Positions 15,543 to 35,415 of a stretch of DNA of 64,000 nt are shown one piece after another. Each line of letters starts with the position of its first letter. Positions within the stretch are counted from its first letter, which is position 1. Origin of the DNA: an uncultured virus (IMG/VR IMGVR_UViG_3300021964_000043) (Duplodnaviria; Heunggongvirae; Uroviricota; Caudoviricetes); IMG/VR virus record IMGVR_UViG_3300021964_000043. One strand, given 5' to 3'. Made by a program: the position numbers and the translations under genes. The notes beneath the pieces are model-generated. The model made no database searches. It was given only the letters and a program-made list of their open reading frames with translations, and was not told the origin of the DNA.

Positions 15543-16105
15543 ACTATGCTCGTTAATTGATCTTCTTTTCCAGCTTTTCCTTTTACCATAATATTAAAAG
15601 ATATGCTAATTCTTGGGTTTGGTGATTTATTTACTGGAACCCAGTGTTGTAACCAAGCAGGAAAAATTAAAATGCTATTTGGAATAACTGGATAATGCCA
15701 AGAATCTGAATTTTGAACAATATATTCTTTTACTGTAGGAGCAATTGATCCTATATTTTTTGAATCAAAAAATTCAATTGGTGGATGATCAGGATCTCCA
15801 GTAGGATAATAAACGCCACTCAATAAGCTATTTCCATGATTATGTGGCCTATGGTCTTCATATTGATTCATCACGTTATACCACATAGTATTCAAATATA
15901 GTTCACAATCCCAATTCATATACTCTGCGTACTGATTAGATAAATCTAAAACAGCATCTGCCAAAGGTTTGAATTCTTCTTCTTTGTGAATGTGTGGTTT
16001 ACTGTGCCTTTGAGTAAGATCAATAGAATCTAAAAGATCATTTGGTTTTTCAATAACATTATATTCAGCTAAAACTGATGTAGGAAATAACGAGTCAATT
16101 ATCAT
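15533..16105 (-). CDS. Fe(II)/2-oxoglutarate oxygenase (TIGR02466-like)
   Basis: HNHGNSLLSGVYY...IFPAWLQHWV...RISISFN. Confidence 0.85.
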   Translation of the reverse strand: MIIDSLFPTSVLAEYNVIEKPNDLLDSIDLTQRHSKPHIHKEEEFKPLADAVLDLSNQYAEYMNWDCELYLNTMWYNVMNQYEDHRPHNHGNSLLSGVYYPTGDPDHPPIEFFDSKNIGSIAPTVKEYIVQNSDSWHYPVIPNSILIFPAWLQHWVPVNKSPNPRISISFNIMVKGKAGKEDQLTSIVWK

Positions 16106-16635
16106 CTCGCTTCCCATCCAAAATTTATAGACACCACAATACGATCTTCGTCTAATTCATTTGCTTCAGTTTTATGAAGTAAAAAAGCTGGAAATATTAT
16201 GAGGTCTTTTTCTTCTAATGGAATTGTAATCAATGGCTCATCATAACGTCTTTCTCTTCCTTGATAAATGTCTAAAGGATTTCGAAAAACTAGATTACCA
16301 TTGCCAGGCTTAAATTGAGGATACCATACAGCTGCTAGTTCGCATGGGCCATGATGATGCCAATCGGTCCAACCACCTTTACCATGACGATTAGACCAAG
16401 CCTGAAGCAAAAGTGGTTTTGATTCAGGATTCATACCATACTCAAGCCAAAACTTATCAGCTTCAGCTAATATAGTATCATGGATTTCTTTTGGAATAAT
16501 TAAAGTTTGACCATTATTTTCAGATGATTCAGCATCTCCTATTTCTAAAAGATGCTGTGCATAATTACATTCTGGAATCCAATCGGTATTTAACTTTGTT
16601 GCCCAAATAGGTAACTCAACTAATATATTTTTCAT
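16102..16635 (-). CDS. Fe(II)/2-oxoglutarate oxygenase (TIGR02466-like)
   Basis: HHH...AVWY...IIFPAFLLHKT...RIVVSIN. Confidence 0.85.
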   Translation of the reverse strand: MKNILVELPIWATKLNTDWIPECNYAQHLLEIGDAESSENNGQTLIIPKEIHDTILAEADKFWLEYGMNPESKPLLLQAWSNRHGKGGWTDWHHHGPCELAAVWYPQFKPGNGNLVFRNPLDIYQGRERRYDEPLITIPLEEKDLIIFPAFLLHKTEANELDEDRIVVSINFGWEAR

Positions 16636-23974: not shown

Positions 23975-24382
23975 ATGCTAGAGATTTTACACAAAGGTTC
24001 AAAAGCGTGTTTCATTGATGACACTGGGCGGGATCACATAATCCCTATATTTTCTGTTGGCAGATATCTCGCTGAAGGAAGATACGTCGTTAAGGTCGAA
24101 GGGCTTGAACAAGAGTTTAAGCATATTATTGAAAAGCTTAAAATAACTGAAAATCATAGTGTGCATTGCTATATTTCTCCTAAGTTTGCAAAGTCTTTTG
24201 ACGTTCACACAGATCCTATAGATGTATTTATATACTGTCTCGAAGGGACTAAAGTCATGTCAATTGATGAACAATTGGTTTATATCGAACCAGAGACTTT
24301 TGTCAGAATACCCGCAAACACTCCTCACAGAGCTTTAAATATATTTGATTCTACGATGTTATCAATAGGAGTTGAAAAATGA
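23975..24382 (+). CDS. JmjC/cupin-type oxygenase (ROXA/Cupin_4-like, short)
   Basis: YISP...SFDVHTD..DVF...EGTK...IPANTPHRA (HxD...H). Confidence 0.75.
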   Translation: MLEILHKGSKACFIDDTGRDHIIPIFSVGRYLAEGRYVVKVEGLEQEFKHIIEKLKITENHSVHCYISPKFAKSFDVHTDPIDVFIYCLEGTKVMSIDEQLVYIEPETFVRIPANTPHRALNIFDSTMLSIGVEK

Positions 24383-24549
24383 AATATGCCGTTTACGTTG
24401 AAATAGACACAAACGAATTTATGTATGATACTGGTAATGATGCAATTAACGTTGGTGATAAACCATTACTATTTGATACAAAAGAAGAAGCAGAAAAAAG
24501 AGCTAAATTATGGAAAACAGGAACTGTAGTCGAATATCCATATGATTAA
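24379..24549 (+). CDS. Hypothetical 56-aa protein (not in ORF track)
   Basis: Manual translation MKYAVYVEID...PLLFDTKEEAEKRAKLWKTGTVVEYPYD; AGGAG SD; ATGA overlap. Confidence 0.65.
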   Translation: MKYAVYVEIDTNEFMYDTGNDAINVGDKPLLFDTKEEAEKRAKLWKTGTVVEYPYD

Positions 24550-25576
24550 AAACGACACTATGATCTACGTCAAAACGACGGAGACGTGTAACTTAAATTG
24601 TGATCACTGTTTTACGAACGGTATCAATGGAGCAAAAATTTATTTTAATCCAGATGCTGTCGCAAAATGGTGTAATGAGTTAAAAGAGTTAATGCCACAA
24701 ATGACTACTCATTTTGAGTTTCATGGTGGTGAACCTTTTCTTGCTCCCGTTGATGATATGTGGAGATTCTATGAATTGACACAAGAAAAATGGAACGGTG
24801 ACGCGACTTATGGTATCACTACTAACCTGGTTGTAAAACTTACTGAAAAAAGATTAGACTTTTTAGACCATGTGTGCAATAAACGTATTGGTACGTCATG
24901 GGATCCAACAATTCGATTTGATAACGAAAAACAGCGAGAGCTCTTTGAATCAAACATCAAATTATTATTACAAAGAGGTTATATTATTAAGCTGTTTGTA
25001 TCACTTACATGTGATACTATTGAAATGGGTCCTGAAAAACTTATGCGTTATGTCAAAGATTTAGGCGTACAGGAAATGGCTCTTGAAAGAATTACTCATG
25101 ATGGCAATGCAACTCGTAATCCCGTATTTCCATCTAACCTAGCACTTCAAAATTATTTTCTTGATATGCATAGATTCATAGAAGAAAATGATGCACGTGG
25201 TTGGTTTGATAATGAGTTTATGGAAAACATATACACTAAATTTGAAACTGGATATACGGGTGCTGGTACATTTTGCCGAGATTGTGAGCAAAAGCTCTTT
25301 ACAATTAACGCAGATGGAGGGATAGCTGGATGTCCAAACTCAGCTCCGACAAGTGCTTTTGGACATATCTATATCCATCCTGAAGAAGTAATCAAAGCAC
25401 CAAAACGATGTAACGTAATCATGGAAGAATTACAAAGAGATCCACGATGTTACGATTGCAAAGTGTATAAATACTGTAAAGGCGACTGCCACCAACTTGC
25501 ATGGGAAGGTGATATATGTGGCGCGCCAAGATTTTTAATGAAAGAATTGGACGAGAAATATGGCAACACTAACTAA
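24542..25576 (+). CDS. Radical SAM/SPASM-domain protein (rSAM-1)
   Basis: CNLNCDHC; FHGGEP; C-terminal CRDC...GCPN...CYDCKVYKYCKGDC...C. Confidence 0.92.
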   Translation: MIKNDTMIYVKTTETCNLNCDHCFTNGINGAKIYFNPDAVAKWCNELKELMPQMTTHFEFHGGEPFLAPVDDMWRFYELTQEKWNGDATYGITTNLVVKLTEKRLDFLDHVCNKRIGTSWDPTIRFDNEKQRELFESNIKLLLQRGYIIKLFVSLTCDTIEMGPEKLMRYVKDLGVQEMALERITHDGNATRNPVFPSNLALQNYFLDMHRFIEENDARGWFDNEFMENIYTKFETGYTGAGTFCRDCEQKLFTINADGGIAGCPNSAPTSAFGHIYIHPEEVIKAPKRCNVIMEELQRDPRCYDCKVYKYCKGDCHQLAWEGDICGAPRFLMKELDEKYGNTN

Positions 25577-26141
25577 TCCAGTTGAAGACGATAACATTGC
25601 GGCGAGATTTAATGATTATCTACCGCCAGCAGCAAATACAGGTATTTCGTGGGGAACTAATGCGCATCCTTTTTCTCACGGCGATTGGCCTTTGTATTTT
25701 GGTGGAAGTACAAGTGGTAGATCTTCGACTCTTACTGGCGCATCACTAAAAAATAGTGGTGATCTTATTACCGCGGGTGGTCTAGAATCTGCAATTGAAA
25801 CCGAAACTTATTATTATACCTCTATTCGTAGTTTAAGAGCTCAACATAATATTACTGGTGGTGGAGGTAATACTGGTTCACAACCTACTCCAGGTATTAT
25901 CTACGACCAAACAGCAATTGCTTATCTGAATAGCAATTACTATCAATCTGCAGTATATTACGGTTCTATTGGATTAGGAATTGGGTCTTATACACAAGTC
26001 GATGACTCCCATCTTGAACAAAAATTTGACCAATTAAGAACTCTTTATAATACTGCAAGAGGAGCAACTACAACAATTACCCTAAACACGTGCCATGCGT
26101 CTTGCCATAGCTCGTGTCATGGTTCAAGAGGAAGAAGATAA
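25560..26141 (+). CDS. Putative rSAM substrate/structural-like protein with C-terminal (CHxS)3 motif
   Basis: G/S/T/Y-rich body; ends TCHASCHSSCHGSRGRR, which holds the only three Cys of the protein. Confidence 0.7.
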   Translation: MATLTNPVEDDNIAARFNDYLPPAANTGISWGTNAHPFSHGDWPLYFGGSTSGRSSTLTGASLKNSGDLITAGGLESAIETETYYYTSIRSLRAQHNITGGGGNTGSQPTPGIIYDQTAIAYLNSNYYQSAVYYGSIGLGIGSYTQVDDSHLEQKFDQLRTLYNTARGATTTITLNTCHASCHSSCHGSRGRR

Positions 26142-26812
26142 TGAAATTGATTGAAACGACCGCTCCCATTTCTTTGGAAGAGCTTAAATTATTTTTTAAT
26201 GATAAAAATATTACGTATATGGTTCATTATGAAGATTCAACTCTTCAAGGACCAAAACTTTTAACCTATTTGAGTAATTTAGAAATTCCGTGTGATATTG
26301 GATTTACTACTCAAGATGGGTTTGACGAAATGACTAAGGCTTATTTGGAAGCGAATATTATAGTTAATATTCCCATTCTAAAAGAAAGAGTAGTTAACTT
26401 ATTGCTTCAAATGAAAGGCTTACTTGAATTAAAGGAAAAAGAGTTTATTGACGCAAATGTCGATATACTAAAAGACTGGGCTAAAAAACTAGATGCACTT
26501 ACTCTTTATAATCTATATACTGTAAATTCATCCGAGATTAAAGAATATGTTGAATCACATCCAGAAGATGATACAAAAGATTTGACTGGTATTAACTGGG
26601 TAAGCTTGTTAGACGTTGAAAAGTTTTTTAGATTTTATGGAAACGTTATACCAGAGCATAAGGTTTATTACAAGTCTTATTTTAACGAATATATGTTTAA
26701 GGGAAAAAATCTTTATAGTTACTGGGCAAACGAAAACAATCCCATGTTTCTATTAACTAACGGTATCGCTACCGGCGCATTACAGGAGAATAATAATGCT
26801 ACATCTATTTAA
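26141..26812 (+). CDS. Hypothetical protein in the rSAM island
   Basis: Likely start MKLIETT at 26141 (TAATG coupling). Confidence 0.75.
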   Translation: MKLIETTAPISLEELKLFFNDKNITYMVHYEDSTLQGPKLLTYLSNLEIPCDIGFTTQDGFDEMTKAYLEANIIVNIPILKERVVNLLLQMKGLLELKEKEFIDANVDILKDWAKKLDALTLYNLYTVNSSEIKEYVESHPEDDTKDLTGINWVSLLDVEKFFRFYGNVIPEHKVYYKSYFNEYMFKGKNLYSYWANENNPMFLLTNGIATGALQENNNATSI

Positions 26813-27947
26813 GAAAGTTTACGTAGCAACCGACACTTATATAGATATGGCAATTGATAGAGTCGTTATCTCAAAAGAAAATGGTTTTGAGGCTAGTGAA
26901 CTTTTACAGCTACAACAACCAGGAAAGCTTATTGCTTATGCCCAAGAGGTAAAAAACCTTATTGGATCTAAAGACCGAGCGTTTATGGATACAATGGATA
27001 TGTTTGATAAGCTTGGTGATCACACAGACGCTACTGGAAAACGAGTAGTTGTATATTGTGATGATAAAGCTTTTAAGATTGTTATGGCTCTATGGTTTAG
27101 ACTTATATTTAAGAAAACAAATGCTGACGCTGCTGTTGATCTTCTCGAATCAATGGTATTTAAGCATAAGCTATTTGGCCAATCAAGATTTGTTTCGAAC
27201 AATGGTAACACAGACAATCCATATGAGATAGACATTACTGGATTCAAAAAGGTTTTTGAAGGTGCGCAAAAACCATCAGCTGAAAGACGTAAAAAGTTTC
27301 TATCTGAAAACAAAGCAGCATTAAGCCTTGAATATCTATTGGCAACTTATCTTGCTAATGGTAAACTAAAAGGTGAATTAAAAACTGTACTTCGTATTCT
27401 CTTAAAAAAGGACCTTGAAAAATATTTGTATGAGCTTAAGGAAATTTTCTTTACTCATATCATTACTCAAAGGTTTACCTCAACTCTTAAACTTGAAAAA
27501 ACCTATGACTTTACTAATTATGATACTATCCTTAAAGACGAATCAGAGTTTCCAAAATTATTCATGGATCCAAATGTTTGGACAACACCATATATGAGTA
27601 AGCCAAGTTCTGGCAAAAATATTAACTTTGAAGGAATCACTGATAAGCATATTAAATCATTTGCTAAATTTGCTCAATTGGCTGGAGCGTGTTGGGCTGA
27701 AGAAAGTATTTACGAATTCGTAAAGTCTGATACTTCAAAGCTAGATTTTATTAGTGCTATTAAAGGTGATAGTATGACAGACACTATGCTTAAATATATT
27801 CTTGAAGTTGAGTCAACATATGAGCACGCAGCTGGGTCATTCTTCTCTATTGACCTTGAGACTGTAAATCATTATTTTGTACAAGCTCTTTTGGACGCTT
27901 GGAATGATGGCAATAAAGAATTCTTGGAGCAATACTCAGTAATGTAA
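26796..27947 (+). CDS. Hypothetical protein in the rSAM island
   Basis: 383-aa ORF with AGGAG SD; no recognised motif. Confidence 0.75.
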   Translation: MLHLFKKVYVATDTYIDMAIDRVVISKENGFEASELLQLQQPGKLIAYAQEVKNLIGSKDRAFMDTMDMFDKLGDHTDATGKRVVVYCDDKAFKIVMALWFRLIFKKTNADAAVDLLESMVFKHKLFGQSRFVSNNGNTDNPYEIDITGFKKVFEGAQKPSAERRKKFLSENKAALSLEYLLATYLANGKLKGELKTVLRILLKKDLEKYLYELKEIFFTHIITQRFTSTLKLEKTYDFTNYDTILKDESEFPKLFMDPNVWTTPYMSKPSSGKNINFEGITDKHIKSFAKFAQLAGACWAEESIYEFVKSDTSKLDFISAIKGDSMTDTMLKYILEVESTYEHAAGSFFSIDLETVNHYFVQALLDAWNDGNKEFLEQYSVM

Positions 27948-28966
27948 TGGATATTTACGACTTAATTGATACAAAAGTAGTTCGTTATGGTGAAATAGTC
28001 GTATGTCTATTTGAACACTGTAACCTTAGATGTTCTTTCTGTCCACAAGATCACTCTTCAGTTATTGGTGCATCTTACGAAGAAATTACTGATAAAGTAA
28101 AATCAATTGTTGAGTGGATTAACAATAATCCGCGACAGCAAGCTTATAAGATTCATCTAATGGGTGGCGAATTATTTCAAGATCGATGGATTGAAGAAGA
28201 TTTTTTAAGTTACTATCAAGACCTAATTAGTCTTATTGATGCTCAAACAAAAGCTGATATTCATTTTAATTTTATCACTAATTTAGTGTTTCAAAATCGA
28301 AAACCAGTTTTAGATTTTCTAAATCGTAACAATCTTAAGATATCGATTAGCTATGATCCATCTGGTCGATTTAATAAAAATGATTTAGAAATTTTCACTC
28401 GCAATATAATCTATTTTCAAGACCATATTGAAATGGTTTCCCTTGTAGCAACCAAACAAAATATAGATCGTATTATTGCTGGTGATCATTTATTTGAAGA
28501 TCTATACACTAACTATACTTGCGACTTTGATCATTTTCTGCCGTCGGTTGCTACGTCCAGAATTATGATGCCAAGTGAAAAAGATTTATTTGAATTCTAT
28601 AAGGTGTTAGTGAATAAATACCCTAAGTGTTTGAACGTTAATCACTTTGTGAATGACAAGCCAGCAAATAAAATGATATGCACAAGAGGTAACTCTTTGA
28701 CTATTATGCCTGATGGTGCTAAGCCTCAAGGTTGTTCTGGTGCAGTATTCTTAAAGGAAGCTCAAACCGAAGATTTAGGTGGACCACAAATTGTTGAGAA
28801 TTTTCTTGACAAATATAATTGTTTTGAATGTGAATATTTTCCACGTTGCCCTTTATCATGTTTTATAAAAGAAGACTATAAACACATAGAACAAGATATG
28901 AGTGAGTGCGTTTTTAAGGCGACTTTTAGATATGCAGATAGCATTTATAAATCCACCACACGCTGA
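27947..28966 (+). CDS. Radical SAM protein with SPASM/twitch-like C-terminus (rSAM-2)
   Basis: CNLRCSFC; MGGELF; CTRG...GCS...CFECEYFPRCPLSC...C. Confidence 0.9.
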   Translation: MDIYDLIDTKVVRYGEIVVCLFEHCNLRCSFCPQDHSSVIGASYEEITDKVKSIVEWINNNPRQQAYKIHLMGGELFQDRWIEEDFLSYYQDLISLIDAQTKADIHFNFITNLVFQNRKPVLDFLNRNNLKISISYDPSGRFNKNDLEIFTRNIIYFQDHIEMVSLVATKQNIDRIIAGDHLFEDLYTNYTCDFDHFLPSVATSRIMMPSEKDLFEFYKVLVNKYPKCLNVNHFVNDKPANKMICTRGNSLTIMPDGAKPQGCSGAVFLKEAQTEDLGGPQIVENFLDKYNCFECEYFPRCPLSCFIKEDYKHIEQDMSECVFKATFRYADSIYKSTTR

Positions 28967-30602
28967 CTGGTCACTAGCAAACAATGTGACCTACCTTTTA
29001 ATACAGAGTCACTATAAGCACCGAGGCCGTTATGCAGATCAAGTCAAATTCATTCCAGCACCATACAAATGGAATCAATATGAATCATATAATGACGTCA
29101 TCTCAGAAATTGAATCTGCTGATGTCATCATGTTCAGTTCCTATGCCTGGAACTATACAATTGTGGATGGGATCGCAATTGAAATCAAACAGCGCTATCC
29201 AGAAAAAATCTTAGTACTTGGTGGACCACACATTGGTACTAATGACCCTGAGTTACTAAAAGACAGATTTTATTACGATTATATTTGTGAACCTACTAAA
29301 CCAGGTGAACCATTTATGGAAGACCTAATTGATTGTTATATTGAAGGGCGTTTAGACTCAAAAAATATAGCATGGGAACTTTATAATGGCAAAGGTCGTA
29401 TTCATGATTTGTCTACCGAAGATTATTCTATATATGAAGAGCATATTGAATATCTAACAGAAACTGTTAAATATGCTAGACAAAATGACATGGAACCTTT
29501 TATTGTTATCGAAACAACAAGAGGTTGTCCATATAAATGTGTCTTCTGCGAGTGGGGTGGAGGCATTAACACTAAGATCTATAAAAAAGATATTGACATT
29601 GTCAAACGCGATATCCTAGCTATGAAAAAAGCCGGATATCGTGATGCTTATCTGACTGACGCAAACTTTGGCGCGTTTGAAGATCGTGATATCGAAATAT
29701 TTTCATTTGCCTGGAACAATGGATTTAATTTAACCGACATATCTACAATGAAATCTACCGATATTAAAAGACGTAAACGACTAATTGATCGTTGGTTTGA
29801 GGTAGTTGGTAAAGATCGTAGATCACCAAAGTCTGGTGATGGAAGAGATATGTGGGAAGGAACAGGATTTGTTTCTATTGTCCCAACGGTATCAATTCAA
29901 AGCATTAGTGAAAGGGCTATGAAATTAGCTGATCGTATTGACTTGTCAACAGAAAATAAACTTGAACTGAGTAGGTATATCAATCAACGATGTGCTGAAC
30001 ACGGATTTCCTATTCCTGCTCTTGAACTTATCCTAGCTATGCCTGGTTCAACAATACAAGATTTTTATGACGAAATGGAAATCATTTGGAATTTTAAGGC
30101 ATGGGGCTCTTATCGTCATGATTATATGTTTTTGCCTGATTCACGACTAAACTCTGAATCATATAAAAAAGAACATAATATTGAAACAGTCGAAGTCTAT
30201 TCTGATATTGTAGACGAAGACGGTACTGATAATTGGAATAGTCTATATAAGGATAAGAAAACTTATTTCCATACCATTCGTTCTTGCAATTCATTTACTA
30301 CAAATGAAATGTATGAGATGTGGTTTATGAATAATGCTTCTAATTACCTATTAGAAAATTTTTATCCAGCTTTTAATGATATTTGTGACCCTTCAAGGTT
30401 TACAAAAGAGTGTTTTTGTGTTATAATATATCTAGATGAGTGGGAAGGGATATATAATGAAATAAAGGATATTTTCGATCCATCTACTCCACCACGCTCT
30501 ATTAGGCAACTAGGTGGTAAATTTAGAGTAGACACAGTAAATGAGTTTTTGCAAAGAAATAAAACATTGATAATGAGTGAACTATTTAGGAGACTAGCAT
30601 GA
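28932..30602 (+). CDS. Cobalamin-binding-domain radical SAM protein (rSAM-3)
   Basis: Likely start MQIAFINPP; FSSYAWN...VLGGPH B12-binding-like region; ETTRGCPYKCVFCEWG; DANFG; ELILAMPG. Confidence 0.85.
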   Translation: MQIAFINPPHADWSLANNVTYLLIQSHYKHRGRYADQVKFIPAPYKWNQYESYNDVISEIESADVIMFSSYAWNYTIVDGIAIEIKQRYPEKILVLGGPHIGTNDPELLKDRFYYDYICEPTKPGEPFMEDLIDCYIEGRLDSKNIAWELYNGKGRIHDLSTEDYSIYEEHIEYLTETVKYARQNDMEPFIVIETTRGCPYKCVFCEWGGGINTKIYKKDIDIVKRDILAMKKAGYRDAYLTDANFGAFEDRDIEIFSFAWNNGFNLTDISTMKSTDIKRRKRLIDRWFEVVGKDRRSPKSGDGRDMWEGTGFVSIVPTVSIQSISERAMKLADRIDLSTENKLELSRYINQRCAEHGFPIPALELILAMPGSTIQDFYDEMEIIWNFKAWGSYRHDYMFLPDSRLNSESYKKEHNIETVEVYSDIVDEDGTDNWNSLYKDKKTYFHTIRSCNSFTTNEMYEMWFMNNASNYLLENFYPAFNDICDPSRFTKECFCVIIYLDEWEGIYNEIKDIFDPSTPPRSIRQLGGKFRVDTVNEFLQRNKTLIMSELFRRLA

Positions 30603-31105
30603 ATATAAGAAAAGAGCTAGAAACAAAAGGATTTGTAAAACTAAAAGAAGATGGTGGCCTTGATTTAATTCGAATTGATGACCATAAATTGCTAAACACC
30701 GAAGAACGAGCAAGAGATAACGGTGAAAAAGATGTTGATATTCAATTAACAAATAAGCTTAGACTTTTTGCATACTACTTAGAAAATCTTTATGTTAAGC
30801 CAAATTGGCCAAACGCATCGTTCAATAAATTTCTCGTATGGGAAGGTGTCGACAAAGACAATCAGGGTTGGCATACTGATACCTTTGAAAGCTATGATAT
30901 TTTCTTTTTATATTATTTTGATGATACACATGAAGAAACTGGTGGGTCAATAAGTTTCAAATGGGACGAAGATTGTGAAGCAGTATTTCAGCCCTCAGCA
31001 GGTGACTTATTTATGGTATCAAATGCAAGAGGTTTTTGGCATAAAGCTGGTGCCACACAAATAAAAAGGAGGGTCGCTAGTTTTGACTTCTCTATCCACG
31101 AGTGA
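30599..31105 (+). CDS. Fe(II)/2-oxoglutarate oxygenase-like protein
   Basis: WHTD...LYYFD...GGSI...FWHKA...RRVASF; paralog of 32057..32605. Confidence 0.75.
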   Translation: MNIRKELETKGFVKLKEDGGLDLIRIDDHKLLNTEERARDNGEKDVDIQLTNKLRLFAYYLENLYVKPNWPNASFNKFLVWEGVDKDNQGWHTDTFESYDIFFLYYFDDTHEETGGSISFKWDEDCEAVFQPSAGDLFMVSNARGFWHKAGATQIKRRVASFDFSIHE

Positions 31106-31385
31106 TATCATCGAAAAGAAAAGAATTCTGTGTAATGAAAGAGATTTAACTGCAGAATTGTATAACCTATGGATTACTAAACTTCATGAATTTCAAGGCA
31201 ATGAAGAAAAATACAATATGTATGCTCTTATGATTGAGAACCTTGAACCATATTCAAATATGCTAAAAGAAGAAATACGAGAATGTAATAGACAAATATG
31301 CGAAATTGAAGGCGTAGAATCTATAAGTGATACCAATTTTGAGCAAGAATGCGTGTATAAATATGGGTATGATAAACCAAATTGA
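31083..31385 (+). CDS. Hypothetical helical protein
   Basis: ORF in the operon; start uncertain (TTG). Confidence 0.55.
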   Translation: MTSLSTSDIIEKKRILCNERDLTAELYNLWITKLHEFQGNEEKYNMYALMIENLEPYSNMLKEEIRECNRQICEIEGVESISDTNFEQECVYKYGYDKPN

Positions 31386-31397
31386 TGAGAGCTGAAA

Positions 31398-32054
31398 ATG
31401 ACTATTAGAGAAATTTATCCAACTAATATCTATGAAAAAGAACTTGATATTAGTGAAGAAAAACTGAAAGAAATCGAGACCTTTTTAAGAGCTCAACATA
31501 AAGCTTTTATGAGTTCTCCGGATATGGATCACGATGAATATTCAGATGGTAATGAAAACATTGTAATAGATGCTGTCATCGAAGGGCAATGCCCAGAAAT
31601 GAAAGAACTTATTGATGAGGTTAAAAAGGGTTTTCTTACTTTGGCTTATAGTAACCTCGACAACTTTACTGAATCTAATACCGACTCTATGTTACTTGAC
31701 GTCGAGTTAGATTCTTGTAAAATTAACCTAATGAAAAAAGGTTATCGTCTTGGTGCTCACACTCATTATTCAGATGATGCTTTTGCATGCATTTATTTTA
31801 ATGATGTGACCGAAGAAGAGGGTGGCGAACTAGTACTATATGATCCACGTTGGCAGAGAAACTATATGTTTGGCGGGTCTAAACAAGAAAAAATTAAGTC
31901 TAAAAGAGGAAAAATGGTAATTGCTCCTCAGTATCTATGGCATGAAGTAACTCATTATCATGGTGAAGATGAAAGACTTACCTTAGTTGTAAATGCCCAA
32001 GTAGTAAATAAAGGAAATGAGTTAAGAAATAAGAGAACTCAGCACACGGTGTAA
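31398..32054 (+). CDS. Fe(II)/2-oxoglutarate oxygenase (TIGR02466-like)
   Basis: HTH...CIYF...GGELVLYDPR...PQYLWHEV...RLTL. Confidence 0.8.
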   Translation: MTIREIYPTNIYEKELDISEEKLKEIETFLRAQHKAFMSSPDMDHDEYSDGNENIVIDAVIEGQCPEMKELIDEVKKGFLTLAYSNLDNFTESNTDSMLLDVELDSCKINLMKKGYRLGAHTHYSDDAFACIYFNDVTEEEGGELVLYDPRWQRNYMFGGSKQEKIKSKRGKMVIAPQYLWHEVTHYHGEDERLTLVVNAQVVNKGNELRNKRTQHTV

Positions 32055-32056
32055 AA

Positions 32057-32605
32057 TTGGAAAAAATTATAGAATGCATGGATAGTGAAAAACCAAAGGA
32101 AATGACTAACGAACAAACGTTTTTTGTAGATGGTTATTGGTTAGACAAATTACCAAATAATGTCAATATTGATATTTTCGATTCCTTTGATTTCAAAGAT
32201 TGTACAGAACCAGAAGAAGTCTGGTTAGATCCAAGAGCACAGGCTGATCTCGATAAACTCCACCAATGGTTTGCAGATAACTATATCTCAAAAATGTTTG
32301 ATGATTTTGAGATGAAACAATGCGCCATGTGGTCTGGAGTAGATGAAGGCTCGCGTAATTGGCACAACGATTACGAAGATGGTGATTCATTTAATTCAAA
32401 TATTTTAGTCTATATGGATGATAATACTATTGAAAATGGAAATAATATCCAAGTAGCAAGTGGAGATTATATTAACATAATCTATCCAAAAAGACGAGAG
32501 TTTGTTTGGCTAAATCAAAAGAAATGTTTTCAACATAGGGCAACGCACACTAGCGGAGTAAGACGAGTACTTAGTTTTGAATATCTAATTCCCGCGTTAT
32601 TTTAA
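32057..32605 (+). CDS. Fe(II)/2-oxoglutarate oxygenase-like protein
   Basis: WSGVD...WHND...LVYMDD...FQHRA...RRVLSF; start uncertain. Confidence 0.75.
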   Translation: MEKIIECMDSEKPKEMTNEQTFFVDGYWLDKLPNNVNIDIFDSFDFKDCTEPEEVWLDPRAQADLDKLHQWFADNYISKMFDDFEMKQCAMWSGVDEGSRNWHNDYEDGDSFNSNILVYMDDNTIENGNNIQVASGDYINIIYPKRREFVWLNQKKCFQHRATHTSGVRRVLSFEYLIPALF

Positions 32606-32606
32606 T

Positions 32607-33638
32607 ATGGATCTAATTATTAAGCCGACTGAGTTGTGCAATTTCAAATGCACTTTTTGTTCAAGCACAAAATTAGTCGAAGACAAAGCATCAAAATTAG
32701 ATTTGATGAAAATCTTTCAGTTTCTAGATCGTTATCCAGAAACTCAAACTATTATTGTCAATGGTGGTGATCCGTTAATGATGGACCCACAATATTATTG
32801 GGAAATTATTAAATACCTAGACGATAAAAATTTACCTGCCACAATATCACTTACCACTAATCTCTGGCCATTCTATAAAAATCCTAACAAATGGATTCCA
32901 TTATTTAAGAATCCAAGAGTAGGTGTAGCTACATCATTTCAATATGGTGATGGAAGACTTAAAGGTGACTATTCAGTATTTACAGAACAAGACTTTACTA
33001 TGTGTTCTGACTATATGTTATATTATATTGGATATAGACCTTCCTTTATTGCAGTCATTACAGAAGAAAATGAGTGGAGCGTATTACAAACTGTTGAACT
33101 TGCTAAATCAATGAAGGTGGTTTGTAAAGTTAACTATGCAATGGCTTCAGGCGAACAATCAAAACCATATCGACTTTCTAAAATATATGAGCAATATATT
33201 AAAATATGGAAAGCAGGTCTTGCGCCTTGGGAACATAATACTCAACAAATGATGAAACGTATTAGAGGTGAAGCTACTATCTGTCCGCTCACGCGTACGT
33301 GTGACAGCCATATAAGAACTATTCAGCCAGAAGGTGATTATTATTCTTGTGGTGCATTTGGTGATGATAAGGATAAACCTATTGACTTTGATTTTGAAAT
33401 GAAAGGTGGGTTTGTTACACCATTAGCCAATTCACCAGAACTGAATAGCTTAAAAATGGGTTGCTATTCTTGCCCGATGTTTAGTATCTGTAATGGTTGC
33501 AAGAAAACAATTAAAGACCTTAAAGAACACAATATGGTAGAAGATCATTGTTATCATATGAAGCAGCTTGGTCCAGATATTTTAGAAGCTAATGGATTAG
33601 ATACGCAAATGACACCATACGTAAATGAATCAATATGA
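32607..33638 (+). CDS. Radical SAM/SPASM-domain protein (rSAM-4)
   Basis: IKPTELCNFKCTFC; NGGDP; CPLTRTC...YSCG...CYSCPMFSICNGC...C. Confidence 0.92.
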   Translation: MDLIIKPTELCNFKCTFCSSTKLVEDKASKLDLMKIFQFLDRYPETQTIIVNGGDPLMMDPQYYWEIIKYLDDKNLPATISLTTNLWPFYKNPNKWIPLFKNPRVGVATSFQYGDGRLKGDYSVFTEQDFTMCSDYMLYYIGYRPSFIAVITEENEWSVLQTVELAKSMKVVCKVNYAMASGEQSKPYRLSKIYEQYIKIWKAGLAPWEHNTQQMMKRIRGEATICPLTRTCDSHIRTIQPEGDYYSCGAFGDDKDKPIDFDFEMKGGFVTPLANSPELNSLKMGCYSCPMFSICNGCKKTIKDLKEHNMVEDHCYHMKQLGPDILEANGLDTQMTPYVNESI

Positions 33639-34558
33639 ATATATCAATCAACCCATCATATTTCTGTAATTTTAGATGTGACTTCTGTTATTTGACACCA
33701 CAACAATTAGGTGATCAGAAAAAAATAGAACCAAAGCAGCTTGATAAGTTATTATCTCAAATATCAGAACCTATTGACCATATTGATTTATATGGCGGCG
33801 AGATTGGAGCTTTAAAGAGGAGTTATTATAATGAAATTATCGAAGTTATTCGCTGCTGGTATTCTGGCCCTATCAACCTTAATACTAATTTCTCTATGCT
33901 TGACGACAGATTCTTCGAAGATGACATCACTCTTTCCGTCTCATACGATTTTTCAGCAAGAGAAAAATCTGACCTAGTATTTCAAAATATGATGATGAGC
34001 CCTAAGCCAATATCGGTGCTGATCTTGGCCTCACCAAGGGTTATCACCATGGACGTGGACGAGATGGTTCAGAACTTAAATCTGATAAATTCTATCATTT
34101 CTGTTGAAATTAAACCATATTCTACTAATCAAGCTAATACATTTGAAATAACTCACAAGGATTATGAGAATTTTGTTATAAAATGGTTAGAGTCTCCGAT
34201 ACAAAAAAACTTTCAATTTATCAATTATGATAACATTAAAGAGAGTTATTATAAGCGTTACAATGCTTGGAGTGATGACCATGTTTATATAACGCCCAAT
34301 GGGAAATTTGGTGTGCTAGAATTTGATCAAAACGATAATGAATATTTTTTAGAGTTACCAAGCTATCACGCATATGAACTATGGGCTTGGCAAGAAAAAA
34401 GAAAACAATCTACGGTTTGTACTAATTGTCATTGGTTTGGCCATTGCCTTACAGAACATTATAGATATGTTAAAGACTTAAAAAATTCATGCAATGGATA
34501 TAGAGGACTATTGGATTGGTATGCAAGAGTGGAAGATAAAACAACAGCTATATCATAA
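33635..34558 (+). CDS. Radical SAM protein with reduced auxiliary cluster motif (rSAM-5)
   Basis: CNFRCDFC; YGGE; CTNCHWFGHCLTEH...C. Confidence 0.88.
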   Translation: MNISINPSYFCNFRCDFCYLTPQQLGDQKKIEPKQLDKLLSQISEPIDHIDLYGGEIGALKRSYYNEIIEVIRCWYSGPINLNTNFSMLDDRFFEDDITLSVSYDFSAREKSDLVFQNMMMSPKPISVLILASPRVITMDVDEMVQNLNLINSIISVEIKPYSTNQANTFEITHKDYENFVIKWLESPIQKNFQFINYDNIKESYYKRYNAWSDDHVYITPNGKFGVLEFDQNDNEYFLELPSYHAYELWAWQEKRKQSTVCTNCHWFGHCLTEHYRYVKDLKNSCNGYRGLLDWYARVEDKTTAIS

Positions 34559-34955
34559 GCTAAATAGAAATCACCCAGATGATTTGAAATGGGTTACCAT
34601 TGAAGAATCAGACGATATTATAAACAATGCAATAAGATATTTTAGAGAAAAAGATGTTGGTTGGATTTATCCAGCTAAATCTTATATGGTAGCAATTTGC
34701 TATGCATTTTGGATTATGGAAGACTATAATGAAAATTTTTATACAGTTTTAAGTGATCCAGAATTGCTTCCATTAGATGATTATTTTGTTCCATATAAAG
34801 AGGACAAAGATACTTACAATGCTATTATTAGTGAAGTGACGGCCAATAATAAAGGCAAATTAGAAATGAAAGGGATGGTGCCAGATGTCAGACAATACTA
34901 TGAAACTGAACTTGGGGACAAATTTTCTGTTTCCCACAGCAGTGACGATAACTAA
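34521..34955 (+). CDS. Hypothetical protein in the rSAM island
   Basis: Likely start MQEWK; overlaps both neighbours. Confidence 0.65.
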   Translation: MQEWKIKQQLYHKLNRNHPDDLKWVTIEESDDIINNAIRYFREKDVGWIYPAKSYMVAICYAFWIMEDYNENFYTVLSDPELLPLDDYFVPYKEDKDTYNAIISEVTANNKGKLEMKGMVPDVRQYYETELGDKFSVSHSSDDN

Positions 34956-35415
34956 ATTCGATATTACCGACAATATAGTCGAACAGGCTATTGGGTTTGG
35001 TGAAATTACTGATGACTTACAACAACAAGTTGTAAAAGGATTTGATGAACACCTAAAGTCTACCCTTGATAAAACTACAAGCGATTGGTATCATTATAGA
35101 CTACAATCTTGGGTTAACAAGTACGAAAAAGGTCATGCCGGCATGGAAATGCATACTCATGCCGGAGCTCAACTAAGTGCCATTGCTATTTTAGAAGCTG
35201 GGCGGGGAGGTGAACTTGTCTTTCAAGATCCAAGGTCATTTGCATCACGTGGATATGACCTAAACTTTAGACCACTCTTTAATAATTTTACATATGAAGG
35301 AAATCAAGGAGACCTAATCATATTTCCAAGTTTCTTATATCACTCGGTAAGACCAGTAAATATGTTTAGAGTTTCGGCTGCTTTTGATATGTATCTATTG
35401 ACAGGTGATTTTTAA
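34885..35415 (+). CDS. Fe(II)/2-oxoglutarate oxygenase (TIGR02466-like)
   Basis: HTHAGAQLSA...GGELVFQDPR...IIFPSFLYHSV...RVS. Confidence 0.82.
   Translation: MSDNTMKLNLGTNFLFPTAVTITKFDITDNIVEQAIGFGEITDDLQQQVVKGFDEHLKSTLDKTTSDWYHYRLQSWVNKYEKGHAGMEMHTHAGAQLSAIAILEAGRGGELVFQDPRSFASRGYDLNFRPLFNNFTYEGNQGDLIIFPSFLYHSVRPVNMFRVSAAFDMYLLTGDF

What the first reader, a model, noticed from the sequence alone, without database searches (positions are those of the whole stretch)
25560..26141. Candidate substrate ending in a perfect triple C-H-x-S repeat (CHAS-CHSS-CHGS-RGRR)
Seen: codons 26091-26126 encode CHASCHSSCHGS. These are the protein's only Cys residues, and the codons differ between copies, so the repeat is kept at protein level. 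The gene overlaps the end of rSAM-1. The rest of the protein is G/S/T/N/Y-rich like the fibre proteins and unlike its K/E-rich neighbours. Established: CxxxCxxxC spacing is typical of sacti/ranthipeptide substrates, and His-Xaa-Ser triplets mark the rSAM-associated His-Xaa-Ser systems and fit the aromatic-x-x triceptide cyclophane pattern. Inference: this is a hybrid core on a ~175-aa folded carrier rather than a short leader. It may be cross-linked or may form a metal-binding tip on the virion.
Basis: partly seen in the sequence, partly recalled or inferred. Interest (0 to 1): 0.88.

Follow-up and report, generated by a model that had tools for sequence, protein, structure and literature searches.

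The report
Phage virion protein with CHxS tail
A small phage protein ends in an almost unchanging Cys-His-x-Ser triple repeat, always travels with radical-SAM enzyme genes, and is found in virus particles in a cultured relative, so it is probably a structural protein that these enzymes chemically modify.

Summary
Window 25560-26141 (+) encodes a 193-aa protein ending CHAS-CHSS-CHGS-RGRR, and these are its only three Cys.

The tail is the signature of a large, unnamed phage family. The strict form (CHxx)3-RxRR-COOH ends 119 of 120 close homologs and 136 of 150 cluster representatives, while the protein bodies fall to about 30% identity.

The gene sits in a tightly overlapping operon: cupin, SPASM radical-SAM enzyme, CHxS protein, two unknown proteins, second SPASM radical-SAM enzyme. 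This order holds in marine T4-like contigs. The cassette genes also occur in 15 of 15 matching records of cultured jumbo phages of Ralstonia, Burkholderia, Agrobacterium, Sinorhizobium and Pseudomonas.

The body is predicted to fold confidently, with no known structural relative. The tail is predicted to be flexible.

Published virion proteomics of Agrobacterium phage Atu_ph07 lists its tail-bearing homolog gp170, which peaks in the highest-mass gel slice. The flanking enzymes are not listed.

Best reading (about 0.55): a virion-associated protein whose tail is matured by the co-encoded radical-SAM enzymes. This is a phage counterpart of, but not a member of, the bacterial HXS system. No modification has been shown. 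A purely metal-binding or disulfide-forming tail remains a serious rival.

The parts
23975..24382 (+). Cupin / JmjC-like protein (135 aa), first gene of the cassette
   Evidence: Pfam Cupin_2 E=1.6e-8 and JmjC_2 E=1.2e-5. A homolog lies directly upstream of the radical-SAM gene in 65 of 80 related loci.
24542..25576 (+). rSAM-1: radical-SAM enzyme with a SPASM-type C-terminal Cys set (344 aa)
   Evidence: Pfam Radical_SAM. NCBIfam gives only weak hits (20-48 bits against cut-offs of 300-650) to peptide-modifying SPASM maturases, and the SPASM domain model scores 26.9 bits against a cut-off of 27. CxxxCxxC and the C-terminal Cys (C245, C248, C264, C303, C306, C312, C316, C326) are invariant in 37 orthologs. 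It lies directly upstream of the CHxS gene in 78 of 80 loci; the 2 misses are contig ends.
25560..26141 (+). CHxS-tail protein (193 aa): folded body of about 178 aa plus a C-terminal tail
26091..26138 (+). The tail itself: CHAS-CHSS-CHGS-RGRR, preceded by a beta-strand-like ...TITLNT and followed directly by the stop codon
   Evidence: The strict form is present in 119 of 120 and 136 of 150 homologs.
26141..26812 (+). Unknown protein 'unk232' (223 aa); its ATG overlaps the CHxS stop (TAATG)
   Evidence: Directly downstream in 79 of 80 loci. phrog_20767, unknown function. Homologs in 15 cultured jumbo-phage records. AF2 pLDDT 87 with no convincing fold match: no Foldseek hit at E<=0.001, and VIA best Z 5.2 over 54 residues.
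26796..27947 (+). Unknown protein 'unk383' (383 aa); overlaps both neighbours
   Evidence: Present in 66 of 80 loci. No Pfam, PDB-sequence or Atlas lead.
27947..28966 (+). rSAM-2: second radical-SAM enzyme with a SPASM-type Cys pattern (339 aa)
   Evidence: Pfam Radical_SAM at 28.4 bits against a cut-off of 29.5. The best NCBIfam hit is HxsB at 28 bits against a cut-off of 370. CNLRCSFC and CxxCx5Cx3C are read from the translation. Present in 73 of 80 loci.
28902..30602 (+). B12-binding radical-SAM enzyme (putative C-methyltransferase class); its real start is probably the ATG near 28932
   Evidence: NCBIfam KedN5-family 84 bits (cut-off 700). Pfam B12-binding plus Radical_SAM. Present in 33 of 80 loci.
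30599..32054 (+). Two 2OG-Fe(II) oxygenase-like genes (30599-31105, 31398-32054) with a 100-aa ORF between them
   Evidence: Pfam 2OG-FeII_Oxy_3/5. Present in 45 and 25 of 80 loci.
32607..34558 (+). Second pair of radical-SAM genes (32607-33638, 33635-34558) on the same + strand island
   Evidence: phrog_1802 and Pfam Radical_SAM. In 4 variant loci this pair directly follows cupin and rSAM-1.

Best explanation
The 193-aa protein is a structural or virion-associated phage protein. It has a compact folded body and a flexible, exposed C-terminal tail of the form [V/I]-CHxS-CHxS-CHxS-RxRR.

The tail is the substrate of the enzymes encoded around it in one translationally coupled operon. These are two SPASM-type radical-SAM enzymes and two unknown proteins, probably acting as recognition or chaperone partners. 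Many phages add a cupin/JmjC-like oxygenase, a B12-radical-SAM methylase and 2OG oxygenases.

The radical-SAM enzymes would abstract a hydrogen from tail residues and install covalent links within each C-H-x-S unit. The candidates are a His-to-Ser(C-beta) cyclophane-type link and/or a Cys thioether. The matured protein is then built into the particle while the enzymes stay behind in the cell.

Shown here: the motif, its extreme conservation, the operon, the folded carrier, and virion presence of a homolog.

Inferred: the enzyme-substrate relation, the type of link, and the role of the finished tail (a rigid, basic, possibly metal-binding tip or attachment point).
For: 1. Tail conservation against a diverging body. 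The strict (CHxx)3-RxRR end is present in 119 of 120 close homologs and 136 of 150 representatives of clusters at 50% identity; 10 more are near-variants and 4 are fragments or lack the end. Cys, His and Arg are invariant with free synonymous codon use.

2. Gene linkage. Among 80 IMG/VR loci found through the tail protein, rSAM-1 is directly upstream in 78 (the 2 misses are contig ends), unk232 directly downstream in 79, rSAM-2 present in 73, unk383 in 66 and cupin in 65.
- Starting instead from rSAM-1, 73 of 80 loci have the motif downstream, 3 are cut short and 4 lack it there. These loci partly come from the same contigs as the first set.
- Of those 4, 3 carry two tandem short paralogs with the same tail elsewhere on the contig, and the fourth record is an 8.8-kb fragment.
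- The window genes overlap by 17, 1, 17 and 1 nt.

3. The same arrangement is found in distant cultured jumbo phages. All 15 records that hold the unk232 homolog also have rSAM-1 and a tail-bearing protein directly after rSAM-1. This was read directly in RSL2, Phosso, pPa_SNUABM_DT01 and Atu_ph07 and shown by full-length tblastn in the 11 RSL2-like records.

4. Both flanking enzymes have the radical-SAM CxxxCxxC motif and a SPASM-type Cys set. Their only family resemblances are to peptide- or protein-modifying maturases.

5. Precedent. In the bacterial HXS system, two radical-SAM enzymes plus a small protein mature a protein of about 200 aa with His-x-Ser repeats, and a +8 Da change maps to an S-H-R-S-S motif (PMC13128918; abstract and sections 9-10 read).

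6. Rare tail variants lose the middle Cys but keep H-x-S/N triplets (P0166, P0175). The fourth position is Ser in 715 of 765 units and Asn in 37.

7. Virion evidence. Atu_ph07 gp170 is the tail-bearing homolog (296 aa; computed mass 31.89 kDa equals the published value).
- It is listed in the published virion proteome with 8 unique peptides and 35% coverage.
- It was found in gel slices 1-9 and was most abundant in slice 1, where proteins of 76-139 kDa peak; most proteins of about 30 kDa peak in slices 7-8.
- gp165-169 and gp171-175, which include the radical-SAM enzymes, are not listed (PMC6102473, Supplementary Table S5).

8. Natural fusions join the phage Gly_rich_2 domain (PF21722) to the CHxS body and tail (P0156, P0279-P0282). 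The same domain occurs in a fibre-like protein of the window, together with Mtd_N.
Against: - No modified residue has been observed anywhere, so the enzyme-substrate link rests on gene context and analogy.
- The enzymes score far below every curated family cut-off, so no chemistry can be transferred from a known family.
- The Atu_ph07 loading buffer as described contains no reductant. The high-mass gel position could therefore be ordinary disulfides through the three tail Cys. Two other proteins of about 32-36 kDa (gp321, gp616) also peak in slice 1.
- In 4 loci rSAM-1 is not next to a tail protein, so adjacency is not absolute.
- The island also holds other radical-SAM enzymes, oxygenases and a halogenase. 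Their targets could be the neighbouring fibre proteins rather than this tail.
Confidence: 0.55

Rival explanations
1. The tail is an unmodified metal-binding or redox element. Three Cys and three His in a fixed register would bind Zn, Fe or Cu, or form inter-chain disulfides. This would stabilise an oligomeric virion protein, much as metal-His sites stabilise some phage fibre tips. The radical-SAM enzymes next door would act on something else, such as the fibre proteins.
For: - Cys and His are the invariant residues.
- The homolog gp170 is in virions and runs at high mass in a gel whose described loading buffer has no reductant, as disulfide-linked oligomers would.
- The fibre region holds many other tailoring enzymes with unknown targets.
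- That T4 fibre tips use His-coordinated metal ions is recalled, not tested here.
Against: - It does not explain why Ser (or Asn) at the fourth position and the terminal RxRR are conserved almost as strictly as Cys and His.
- It does not explain the near-obligatory, translationally coupled pairing with rSAM-1 and unk232 across unrelated phage lineages.
- It does not explain why rare variants drop a Cys but keep HxS/N triplets.
Confidence: 0.2
2. The tail is a covalent anchoring handle. The radical-SAM enzymes, or oxidation during assembly, link it to a different virion protein such as a fibre or baseplate protein, so the small protein becomes permanently attached to a large structural partner.
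For: - gp170 (31.9 kDa) is most abundant in the top gel slice and spreads over slices 1-9 after SDS and 95 C.
- The cassette is next to fibre or large structural genes in the window, and next to genes annotated as virion structural proteins in RSL2, Phosso and Atu_ph07.
- Fusions to a fibre-type Gly-rich domain exist.
Against: - Known SPASM maturases make links within one chain (general knowledge, not tested here).
- The gel was apparently non-reducing, so disulfides suffice to explain the pattern.
- No partner has been identified.
Confidence: 0.12
3. The protein is not a product but a helper. It could be an Fe-S or electron carrier, or a scaffold that presents other substrates to the many radical-SAM enzymes of the island.
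For: - The phage carries four SPASM-type radical-SAM enzymes plus a B12 type that need clusters and electrons.
- A Cys/His-rich tail could ligate a cluster.
- Marine T4-like genomes rich in radical-SAM genes also carry Fe-S assembly genes (PMC5332604; passage read).
Against: - The homolog is packaged in virions while the enzymes are not.
- The CxxxCxxxC-His register with Ser and RxRR does not resemble known ferredoxin or scaffold motifs (recalled).
- The body has no known fold.
Confidence: 0.06
4. The cassette is a phage-borne functional analogue of, or counter to, the bacterial HXS defence. The matured basic HxS-type tail would act at the DNA-entry step, either excluding superinfecting phages or protecting the phage's own DNA entry from HxsA-like blockers.
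For: - The logic is shared with HXS: two radical-SAM enzymes, small partners, and a protein of about 200 aa with HxS units and basic residues. HxsA acts on incoming phage DNA.
- Virion location would place the protein at the entry site.
Against: - The HxsA model gives no hit even at E<=10, and HxsB/HxsC hits are 13-32 bits against cut-offs of 268-370.
- By eye, the N-terminus (MATLTNPVEDDN...) does not look like a signal peptide; no predictor was run.
- No peptidoglycan-binding or any other Pfam domain was found.
- No PADLOC defence model matches apart from generic radical-SAM hits.
Confidence: 0.07

Closest known systems
HXS anti-phage system (HxsA/B/C/D; NCBIfam TIGR03976-03979; Li et al., Nat Commun 2026, PMC13128918)
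   Same: - Two radical-SAM enzymes plus accessory protein(s) encoded beside a protein of about 200 aa rather than a short peptide.
- The substrate carries several His-x-Ser units rich in basic residues.
- The modified HxsA motif S-H-R-S-S has the same X-H-x-S-X shape as C-H-x-S-C, with Ser in place of Cys.
   Different: - This cassette is phage-encoded and the protein is virion-associated, not a bacterial periplasmic effector.
- The units have period 4, each with an invariant Cys, and sit at the extreme C-terminus before RxRR.
- No signal peptide is apparent by eye and no peptidoglycan-binding domain was found.
- The partner proteins differ (unk232, unk383, cupin).
- The HxsA model gives no hit, and HxsB/HxsC models score 13-32 bits against cut-offs of 268-370.
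Triceptide / three-residue cyclophane maturases acting on His motifs (e.g. HaaB, HtkB; PMC11499958, search listing and start of abstract only)
   Same: - SPASM-type radical-SAM enzymes that link an aromatic residue, including His, to the beta-carbon of the residue two positions on.
- H-x-S/N in the tail fits that three-residue pattern.
- Weak hits of rSAM-1 to the cyclophane-forming YhhB, AmcB and FxsB models.
   Different: - Those substrates are short leader-core peptides released as natural products. Here the motif is on a folded virion protein and each unit is preceded by an invariant Cys.
- Scores are 22-35 bits against cut-offs of 370-445.
Sactipeptide / ranthipeptide thioether maturases (PapB, SCIFF/CteB class) and the NCBIfam 'CXXX-repeat target' maturase family TIGR04115
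   Same: - Cys-rich cores with regular spacing, modified by SPASM radical-SAM enzymes.
- rSAM-1 and rSAM-2 hit PapB (36.5 and 28 bits) and TIGR04115 (about 19 bits) weakly.
   Different: - There is no leader peptide.
- His and Ser are as conserved as Cys.
- Scores are far below the cut-offs of 340-350.
- The acceptor residues typical of these families, as recalled, are not evident.
Radical-SAM maturases that act on folded proteins: anaerobic sulfatase maturase (anSME) and QhpD
   Same: - The substrate is a protein, not a peptide.
- rSAM-1 aligns end to end with the anSME model (36 bits) and with QhpD (25 bits).
- The last unit C-H-[G/S/A]-S-R loosely recalls the sulfatase C-x-[P/A]-x-R motif (recalled).
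   Different: - Scores are far below the cut-offs of 349-453.
- The third position is mostly Gly or Ser, and Ala only rarely.
- There is no sulfatase or amine-dehydrogenase context.

Membership tests
HXS system (HxsA substrate) | Match to the HxsA repeat-protein model (NCBIfam library, which holds TIGR03979 as recalled) | tested here: not met
   No NCBIfam family at E<=10 for the window protein or for the RSL2, Phosso, DT01 and Atu_ph07 homologs.
HXS system (HxsB / HxsC maturases) | Score at or above the curated cut-off of TIGR03978 (370 bits) or TIGR03977 (267.9 bits) | tested here: not met
   rSAM-1 scores 32.1 bits and rSAM-2 28.3 bits against HxsB. The third and fourth radical-SAM enzymes score 25.9 and 12.9 bits against HxsC.
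HXS system | Tandem His-x-Ser units in the substrate | tested here: met
   There are three H-x-S units (HAS, HSS, HGS). Ser or Asn fills the third place of the triplet in 752 of 765 units across homologs. The units are spaced by an extra Cys (period 4), unlike HxsA as described in PMC13128918.
HXS system | Exported effector with N-terminal processing and a peptidoglycan-binding domain | tested here: not met
   No Pfam domain of any kind was found. The N-terminus MATLTNPVEDDN... does not look like a signal peptide by eye; no signal-peptide predictor was run.
SPASM-domain radical-SAM peptide/protein maturases (broad class) | CxxxCxxC radical-SAM motif plus the C-terminal multi-Cys SPASM pattern | tested here: met
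   Both motifs can be read in rSAM-1 and rSAM-2. The Cys are invariant in 37 rSAM-1 orthologs. The SPASM model TIGR04085 scores 26.9 bits against a cut-off of 27, which is borderline.
RiPP precursor (leader-core peptide) | Short precursor with a disposable leader and a released core | tested here: not met
   The body is a 178-aa domain predicted with confidence (pLDDT 83, pTM 0.79). The full-size homolog is found in virions with 35% sequence coverage.
Triceptide (3-residue cyclophane) systems | Aromatic-x-x motif cross-linked ring to C-beta by the cognate maturase | not testable with these tools
   The motif fits (H-x-S/N), but the link can be shown only by mass spectrometry or NMR. Maturase models YhhB, AmcB and FxsB score 22-35 bits against cut-offs of 370-445.
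Phage virion structural protein | Detected in purified particles | tested here: met
   Met for the Atu_ph07 homolog gp170 in published proteomics (PMC6102473 Table S5). Not tested for the window's own phage.

The most novel reading that the evidence does not exclude
This would be the first virus structural protein known to be matured by radical-SAM chemistry. Large phages from the ocean to soil would use an HXS-like two-enzyme pathway to turn an exposed (C-H-x-S)3-RxRR tail into a cross-linked, basic, possibly metal-holding tip or covalent anchor on the particle. The bacterial HXS defence and this phage cassette would then be two sides of one ancient chemistry acting at the cell-envelope / DNA-entry interface.
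Probability: 0.35. Interest if true: 0.9.

Novelty: new variant of a known kind. Interest (0 to 1): 0.8.

Why it matters
Radical-SAM maturation is known for small secreted peptides and, since 2026, for one bacterial anti-phage effector. It has not been described for a component of a virus particle in the papers I could search.

The family is large: 472 hits in the 5.8-billion-protein set and 220 clusters at 50% identity. It spans marine T4-like phages and cultured jumbo phages of plant-associated and clinical bacteria. It is still annotated only as 'hypothetical protein'.

The question is directly testable, because cultured phages carry the cassette and one virion proteome already contains the protein. 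Does a phage chemically cross-link its own structural protein, and what does the finished tail do? The answer would also give a defined, compact substrate for unexplored radical-SAM chemistry on Cys-His-x-Ser units.

Tried and rejected
- Complex prediction of rSAM-1 (alignment A2) with three 4Fe-4S, SAM and the tail protein (alignment A1) gave ipSAE 0.01 in both runs. The tool returned no verdict, and this is no evidence either way.
- tblastn of the window protein against 50,697 GenBank phage records found nothing, and blastn of the whole cassette found nothing. The cultured homologs were reached only through rSAM-1 and unk232, because the bodies have diverged.
- Fold searches of the tail protein model:
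  - Foldseek against PDB gave no match at E<=0.001.
  - VIA-align against 48,161 chains gave a best Z of 4.4.
  - The viral library returned only uncharacterised relatives.
- Fold searches of the unk232 model: Foldseek gave no match. VIA gave a best Z of 5.2 over 54 residues.
- Pfam, NCBIfam, PHROGs and PADLOC gave nothing for the tail protein.
- Pfam and the PDB sequence profile gave nothing for unk232 or unk383. The Atlas gave nothing useful for unk383 and was unreachable three times.
- Our earlier scan notes: nothing by place or by sequence.
- The RSL2/RSF1 virion proteomics paper (PubMed 27081857) is not held. Supplements of the FLC6 and S13 papers were not opened.
- I considered a sulfatase-type formylglycine motif for the last unit (C-H-G-S-R). 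The third position is rarely Ala and never Pro in the sequences examined, so I do not favour it.
- I considered a T4-type late promoter, TATAAATA at 25466-25473, 87 nt before the gene. The motif count in the window is 14 against 8 expected, and the site lies in a coding motif, so this is not conclusive.
Full report
**The observation**

The ORF at 25560-26141 (+) encodes 193 aa and ends ...TLNT-CHAS-CHSS-CHGS-RGRR, followed directly by the stop codon. The three Cys are the only ones in the protein. The body is rich in T, G, S, A, Y and N, with 2 Lys and 5 Glu. The gene starts 17 nt inside the upstream radical-SAM gene. The three repeat units use different codons. 'CH..CH..' occurs only here in the six-frame translation of the window.

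**The motif defines a large family**

- A word-indexed search of 5.8 billion proteins gave 472 hits at E<=1e-3 among 592 candidates; the best 120 were listed.
- An exhaustive HMMER search of 1.84 billion cluster representatives gave 220 at E<=1e-3, 120 at <=1e-10 and 17 at <=1e-30; the best 150 were listed.
- The strict ending (CHxx)3-RxRR-COOH is present in 119 of the 120. The exception has Asn for the first His.
- It is present in 136 of the 150. Ten more are near-variants: an extra residue before RxRR, four units, two units, His to Tyr, or a form that loses the middle Cys but keeps HxN/HxS triplets. Four are fragments or lack the end.
- Body identity meanwhile falls to about 30%.
- Position 4 of each unit is Ser in 715 and Asn in 37 of 765 units. 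Position 3 is variable.
- In 62 distinct tail DNA sequences from 79 loci plus the window, Cys, His and three of the four C-terminal residues (Arg) never change. TGT/TGC, CAT/CAC and both Ser codon families are all used.

This is strong selection on the peptide, not on the DNA.

**Gene context**

The window is part of a marine T4-like myovirus. It carries baseplate wedge and hub proteins, a gp32-like SSB and many fibre-like proteins. Between fibre genes on the minus strand lies a plus-strand island running from 23975 to 35415. Its genes, in order:

- a cupin/JmjC-like protein;
- a 56-aa ORF;
- rSAM-1;
- the CHxS protein;
- unk232;
- unk383;
- rSAM-2;
- a B12-radical-SAM enzyme;
- two 2OG oxygenase-like genes with a 100-aa ORF between them;
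- a 182-aa ORF with no Pfam match;
- two more radical-SAM enzymes;
- a 153-aa ORF with no Pfam match;
- another 2OG oxygenase.

The five core genes overlap by 17, 1, 17 and 1 nt. Both rSAM-1 and rSAM-2 have CxxxCxxC and a CxxCx5Cx3C...C SPASM-type pattern, and the rSAM-1 Cys are invariant in 37 orthologs. Their only family resemblances are weak ones to peptide- and protein-modifying maturases such as DynA, anSME, PapB, YhhB and HxsB. These score 20-48 bits against cut-offs of 300-650.

**Synteny elsewhere**

From IMG/VR, 146 stretches encode a relative of the tail protein, and the best 80 loci were kept. tblastn with the window's proteins found the following homologs in those 80:

| Gene | Loci with a homolog (of 80) | Note |
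|---|---|---|
| rSAM-1 | 78 | directly upstream; both misses are contig ends (L034, L069) |
| unk232 | 79 | directly downstream; the miss, L014, ends 77 nt after the gene |
| rSAM-2 | 73 | |
| unk383 | 66 | |
| cupin | 65 | |
| first 2OG oxygenase (30599-31105) | 45 | |
| B12 enzyme | 33 | |
| 56-aa ORF | 0 | |

Each of the 83 loci then held contains exactly one (CH..)3 motif.

I then ran the converse test, starting from rSAM-1. There were 372 relatives, and the best 80 loci were kept; these partly come from the same contigs as the first set.

- 73 have the motif downstream, 3 are truncated, and 4 have cupin and rSAM-1 followed directly by the second radical-SAM pair.
- Three of those four contigs carry, about 12 kb away, two tandem proteins of 120-127 aa that both end RICH[A/S]SCHYSCH[G/A]SRGRR.
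- The fourth record is an 8.8-kb fragment.

So the enzyme and a tail-bearing protein co-occur in 76 of 77 evaluable records.

**Cultured phages**

The window protein itself finds nothing in GenBank phages, but rSAM-1 and unk232 do. They hit Ralstonia RSL2, RSF1, FLC4-x and RsoM3USA, Burkholderia FLC6, FLC8 and S13, Agrobacterium Atu_ph07, Sinorhizobium Phosso and Pseudomonas pPa_SNUABM_DT01.

In each of RSL2, Phosso, DT01 and Atu_ph07, the gene right after rSAM-1 encodes a protein with a different body that ends in the same tail:

| Phage | Length (aa) | C-terminal end |
|---|---|---|
| RSL2 | 186 | VCHSSCHTSCHGSRGRR |
| Phosso | 306 | YCHTSCHASCHSSRSRR |
| DT01 | 178 | ICHTSCHTSCHSARGRR |
| Atu_ph07 | 296 | FCHSSCHASCHNSRSRR |

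All 11 RSL2-like records have the full-length homolog. That makes 15 of 15 records. By their annotation and literature these phages belong to very different lineages: phiKZ-related, Rak2-like and T4-like. Published genome papers merely list the cupin, radical-SAM and 2OG genes (PMC8066314 and PMC11898562; passages read).

**Structure**

- AlphaFold2 with a 40-row alignment gives a confident alpha/beta body (mean pLDDT 83, pTM 0.79). The last 15 residues are at low confidence.
- No solved structure resembles it. Foldseek found nothing at E<=0.001, and VIA-align gave a best Z of 4.4.
- The viral model library returns only uncharacterised relatives, including the Atu_ph07 protein.
- unk232 also folds confidently (pLDDT 87) without a convincing match.

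**Virion evidence**

The Atu_ph07 paper (PMC6102473) reports ESI-MS/MS of gel slices from purified particles.

- Supplementary Table S5 lists gp170 as 'hypothetical protein', 31.89 kDa, 8 unique peptides, 35.16% coverage, in bands 1-9 and most abundant in band 1.
- The tail-bearing protein translated from the RefSeq gp170 locus has a computed mass of 31.89 kDa, so the identification is secure.
- In that table, band 1 is where proteins of 76-139 kDa peak, and most proteins of about 30 kDa peak in bands 7-8.
- gp165-169 and gp171-175, which include the radical-SAM enzymes and the unk232 homolog, are absent from the table.

The protein is therefore packaged and the enzymes are not, and it runs in an SDS- and heat-stable high-mass form.

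Two caveats apply. The loading buffer as described has no reductant, so disulfides through the tail Cys could explain the shift. Two other small proteins, gp321 and gp616, also peak in band 1.

A structural role is also suggested by natural fusions of the phage Gly_rich_2 domain (PF21722) to the CHxS body and tail (P0156, P0279-P0282). The same domain occurs with Mtd_N in a fibre-like protein of the window.

**Comparison with known systems**

The closest described system is the bacterial HXS defence (PMC13128918; abstract and sections 9 and 10 read).

- HxsB and HxsC (radical-SAM enzymes) and HxsD mature HxsA, a protein with five His-x-Ser repeats.
- A +8 Da change maps to S-H-R-S-S.
- The product blocks phage DNA entry from the periplasm.

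The phage cassette works on the same plan, but it fails the membership tests. The HxsA model does not match. HxsB and HxsC scores are 13-32 bits against cut-offs of 268-370. No signal peptide is apparent by eye, no peptidoglycan-binding domain was found, and the accessory proteins are different.

His-based cyclophane maturases exist (HtkB, HaaB; PMC11499958, listing and start of abstract only), and H-x-S/N fits their three-residue pattern. Thioether maturases (PapB class) are an equally possible analogy for the Cys. None of this chemistry can be assigned from sequence.

**Verdict**

- The interpretation 'substrate of the radical-SAM enzymes on a folded carrier, possibly on the virion' is the best-supported reading (about 0.55). 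It remains an inference, because no modified residue has been seen.
- The main rival is an unmodified metal- or disulfide-forming tail (about 0.2).
- Lesser rivals are inter-protein anchoring (0.12), an HXS-like or anti-HXS role at DNA entry (0.07), and a helper role for the enzymes (0.06).

I found no paper describing the motif or a radical-SAM-matured virion protein. The searches were made; the strings SCHGSRGRR and SCHSSRGRR occur in no held paper. The library lacks most subscription journals, and the RSL2 proteomics paper could not be read.

Noticed in passing
window 14097-15542 (-), 15533-16117 (-), 16102-16635 (-), 34885-35415 (+): A tryptophan halogenase (PF04820, 360 bits) and several PF13759 2OG-Fe(II) oxygenases sit among the tail-fibre genes. 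The fibre region as a whole is peppered with oxidative tailoring enzymes whose targets are unknown.
   Followed up: partly
L150, L155, L157, L165; L169-L171: A variant island in which cupin and rSAM-1 are followed directly by the second radical-SAM pair. In three of these contigs, two tandem paralogs of 120-127 aa with the same tail lie about 12 kb away, next to a structural-looking gene.
   Followed up: yes
P0156, P0279-P0282: Natural fusions of the phage Gly_rich_2 domain (PF21722) with the CHxS body and tail. In P0282 the Gly-rich domain is inserted inside the body.
   Followed up: partly
P0166, P0175, P0257: Rare tail variants. TCHSNH[A/S]NTCH[T/S]S... loses the middle Cys but keeps HxN/HxS triplets. 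P0257 has four CHxS units and a Gly/Pro-rich end instead of RxRR.
   Followed up: no
window 25466-25473 (+): TATAAATA, the T4-type late-promoter core as recalled, lies inside the 3' end of rSAM-1, 87 nt before the CHxS start codon. The window has 14 such sites against 8 expected by chance, so this may be coincidence.
   Followed up: partly
L084-L087 (genome contigs): Contigs carrying the phage cassette are binned in MAGs labelled Marinovum sp., Methanobacteriota archaeon, Bdellovibrionaceae and Rhodobacteraceae. This is most simply phage contigs mis-binned into MAGs.
   Followed up: no
window 26141: The unk232 gene starts at ATG 26141, sharing one base with the CHxS stop codon (TAATG). The mechanical ORF list gives a GTG at 26114. 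My references used 26138, which adds one extra codon.
   Followed up: yes
Atu_ph07 virion table (PMC6102473, Table S5): Besides gp170, two other small proteins peak in the top gel slice: gp321 (36 kDa) and gp616 (32 kDa, single peptide). I did not check whether they carry unusual Cys motifs.
   Followed up: no
window 32057-32605 (+): A 182-aa ORF with no Pfam hit. By eye its sequence shows H-x-D and distal His features like a 2OG oxygenase.
   Followed up: no
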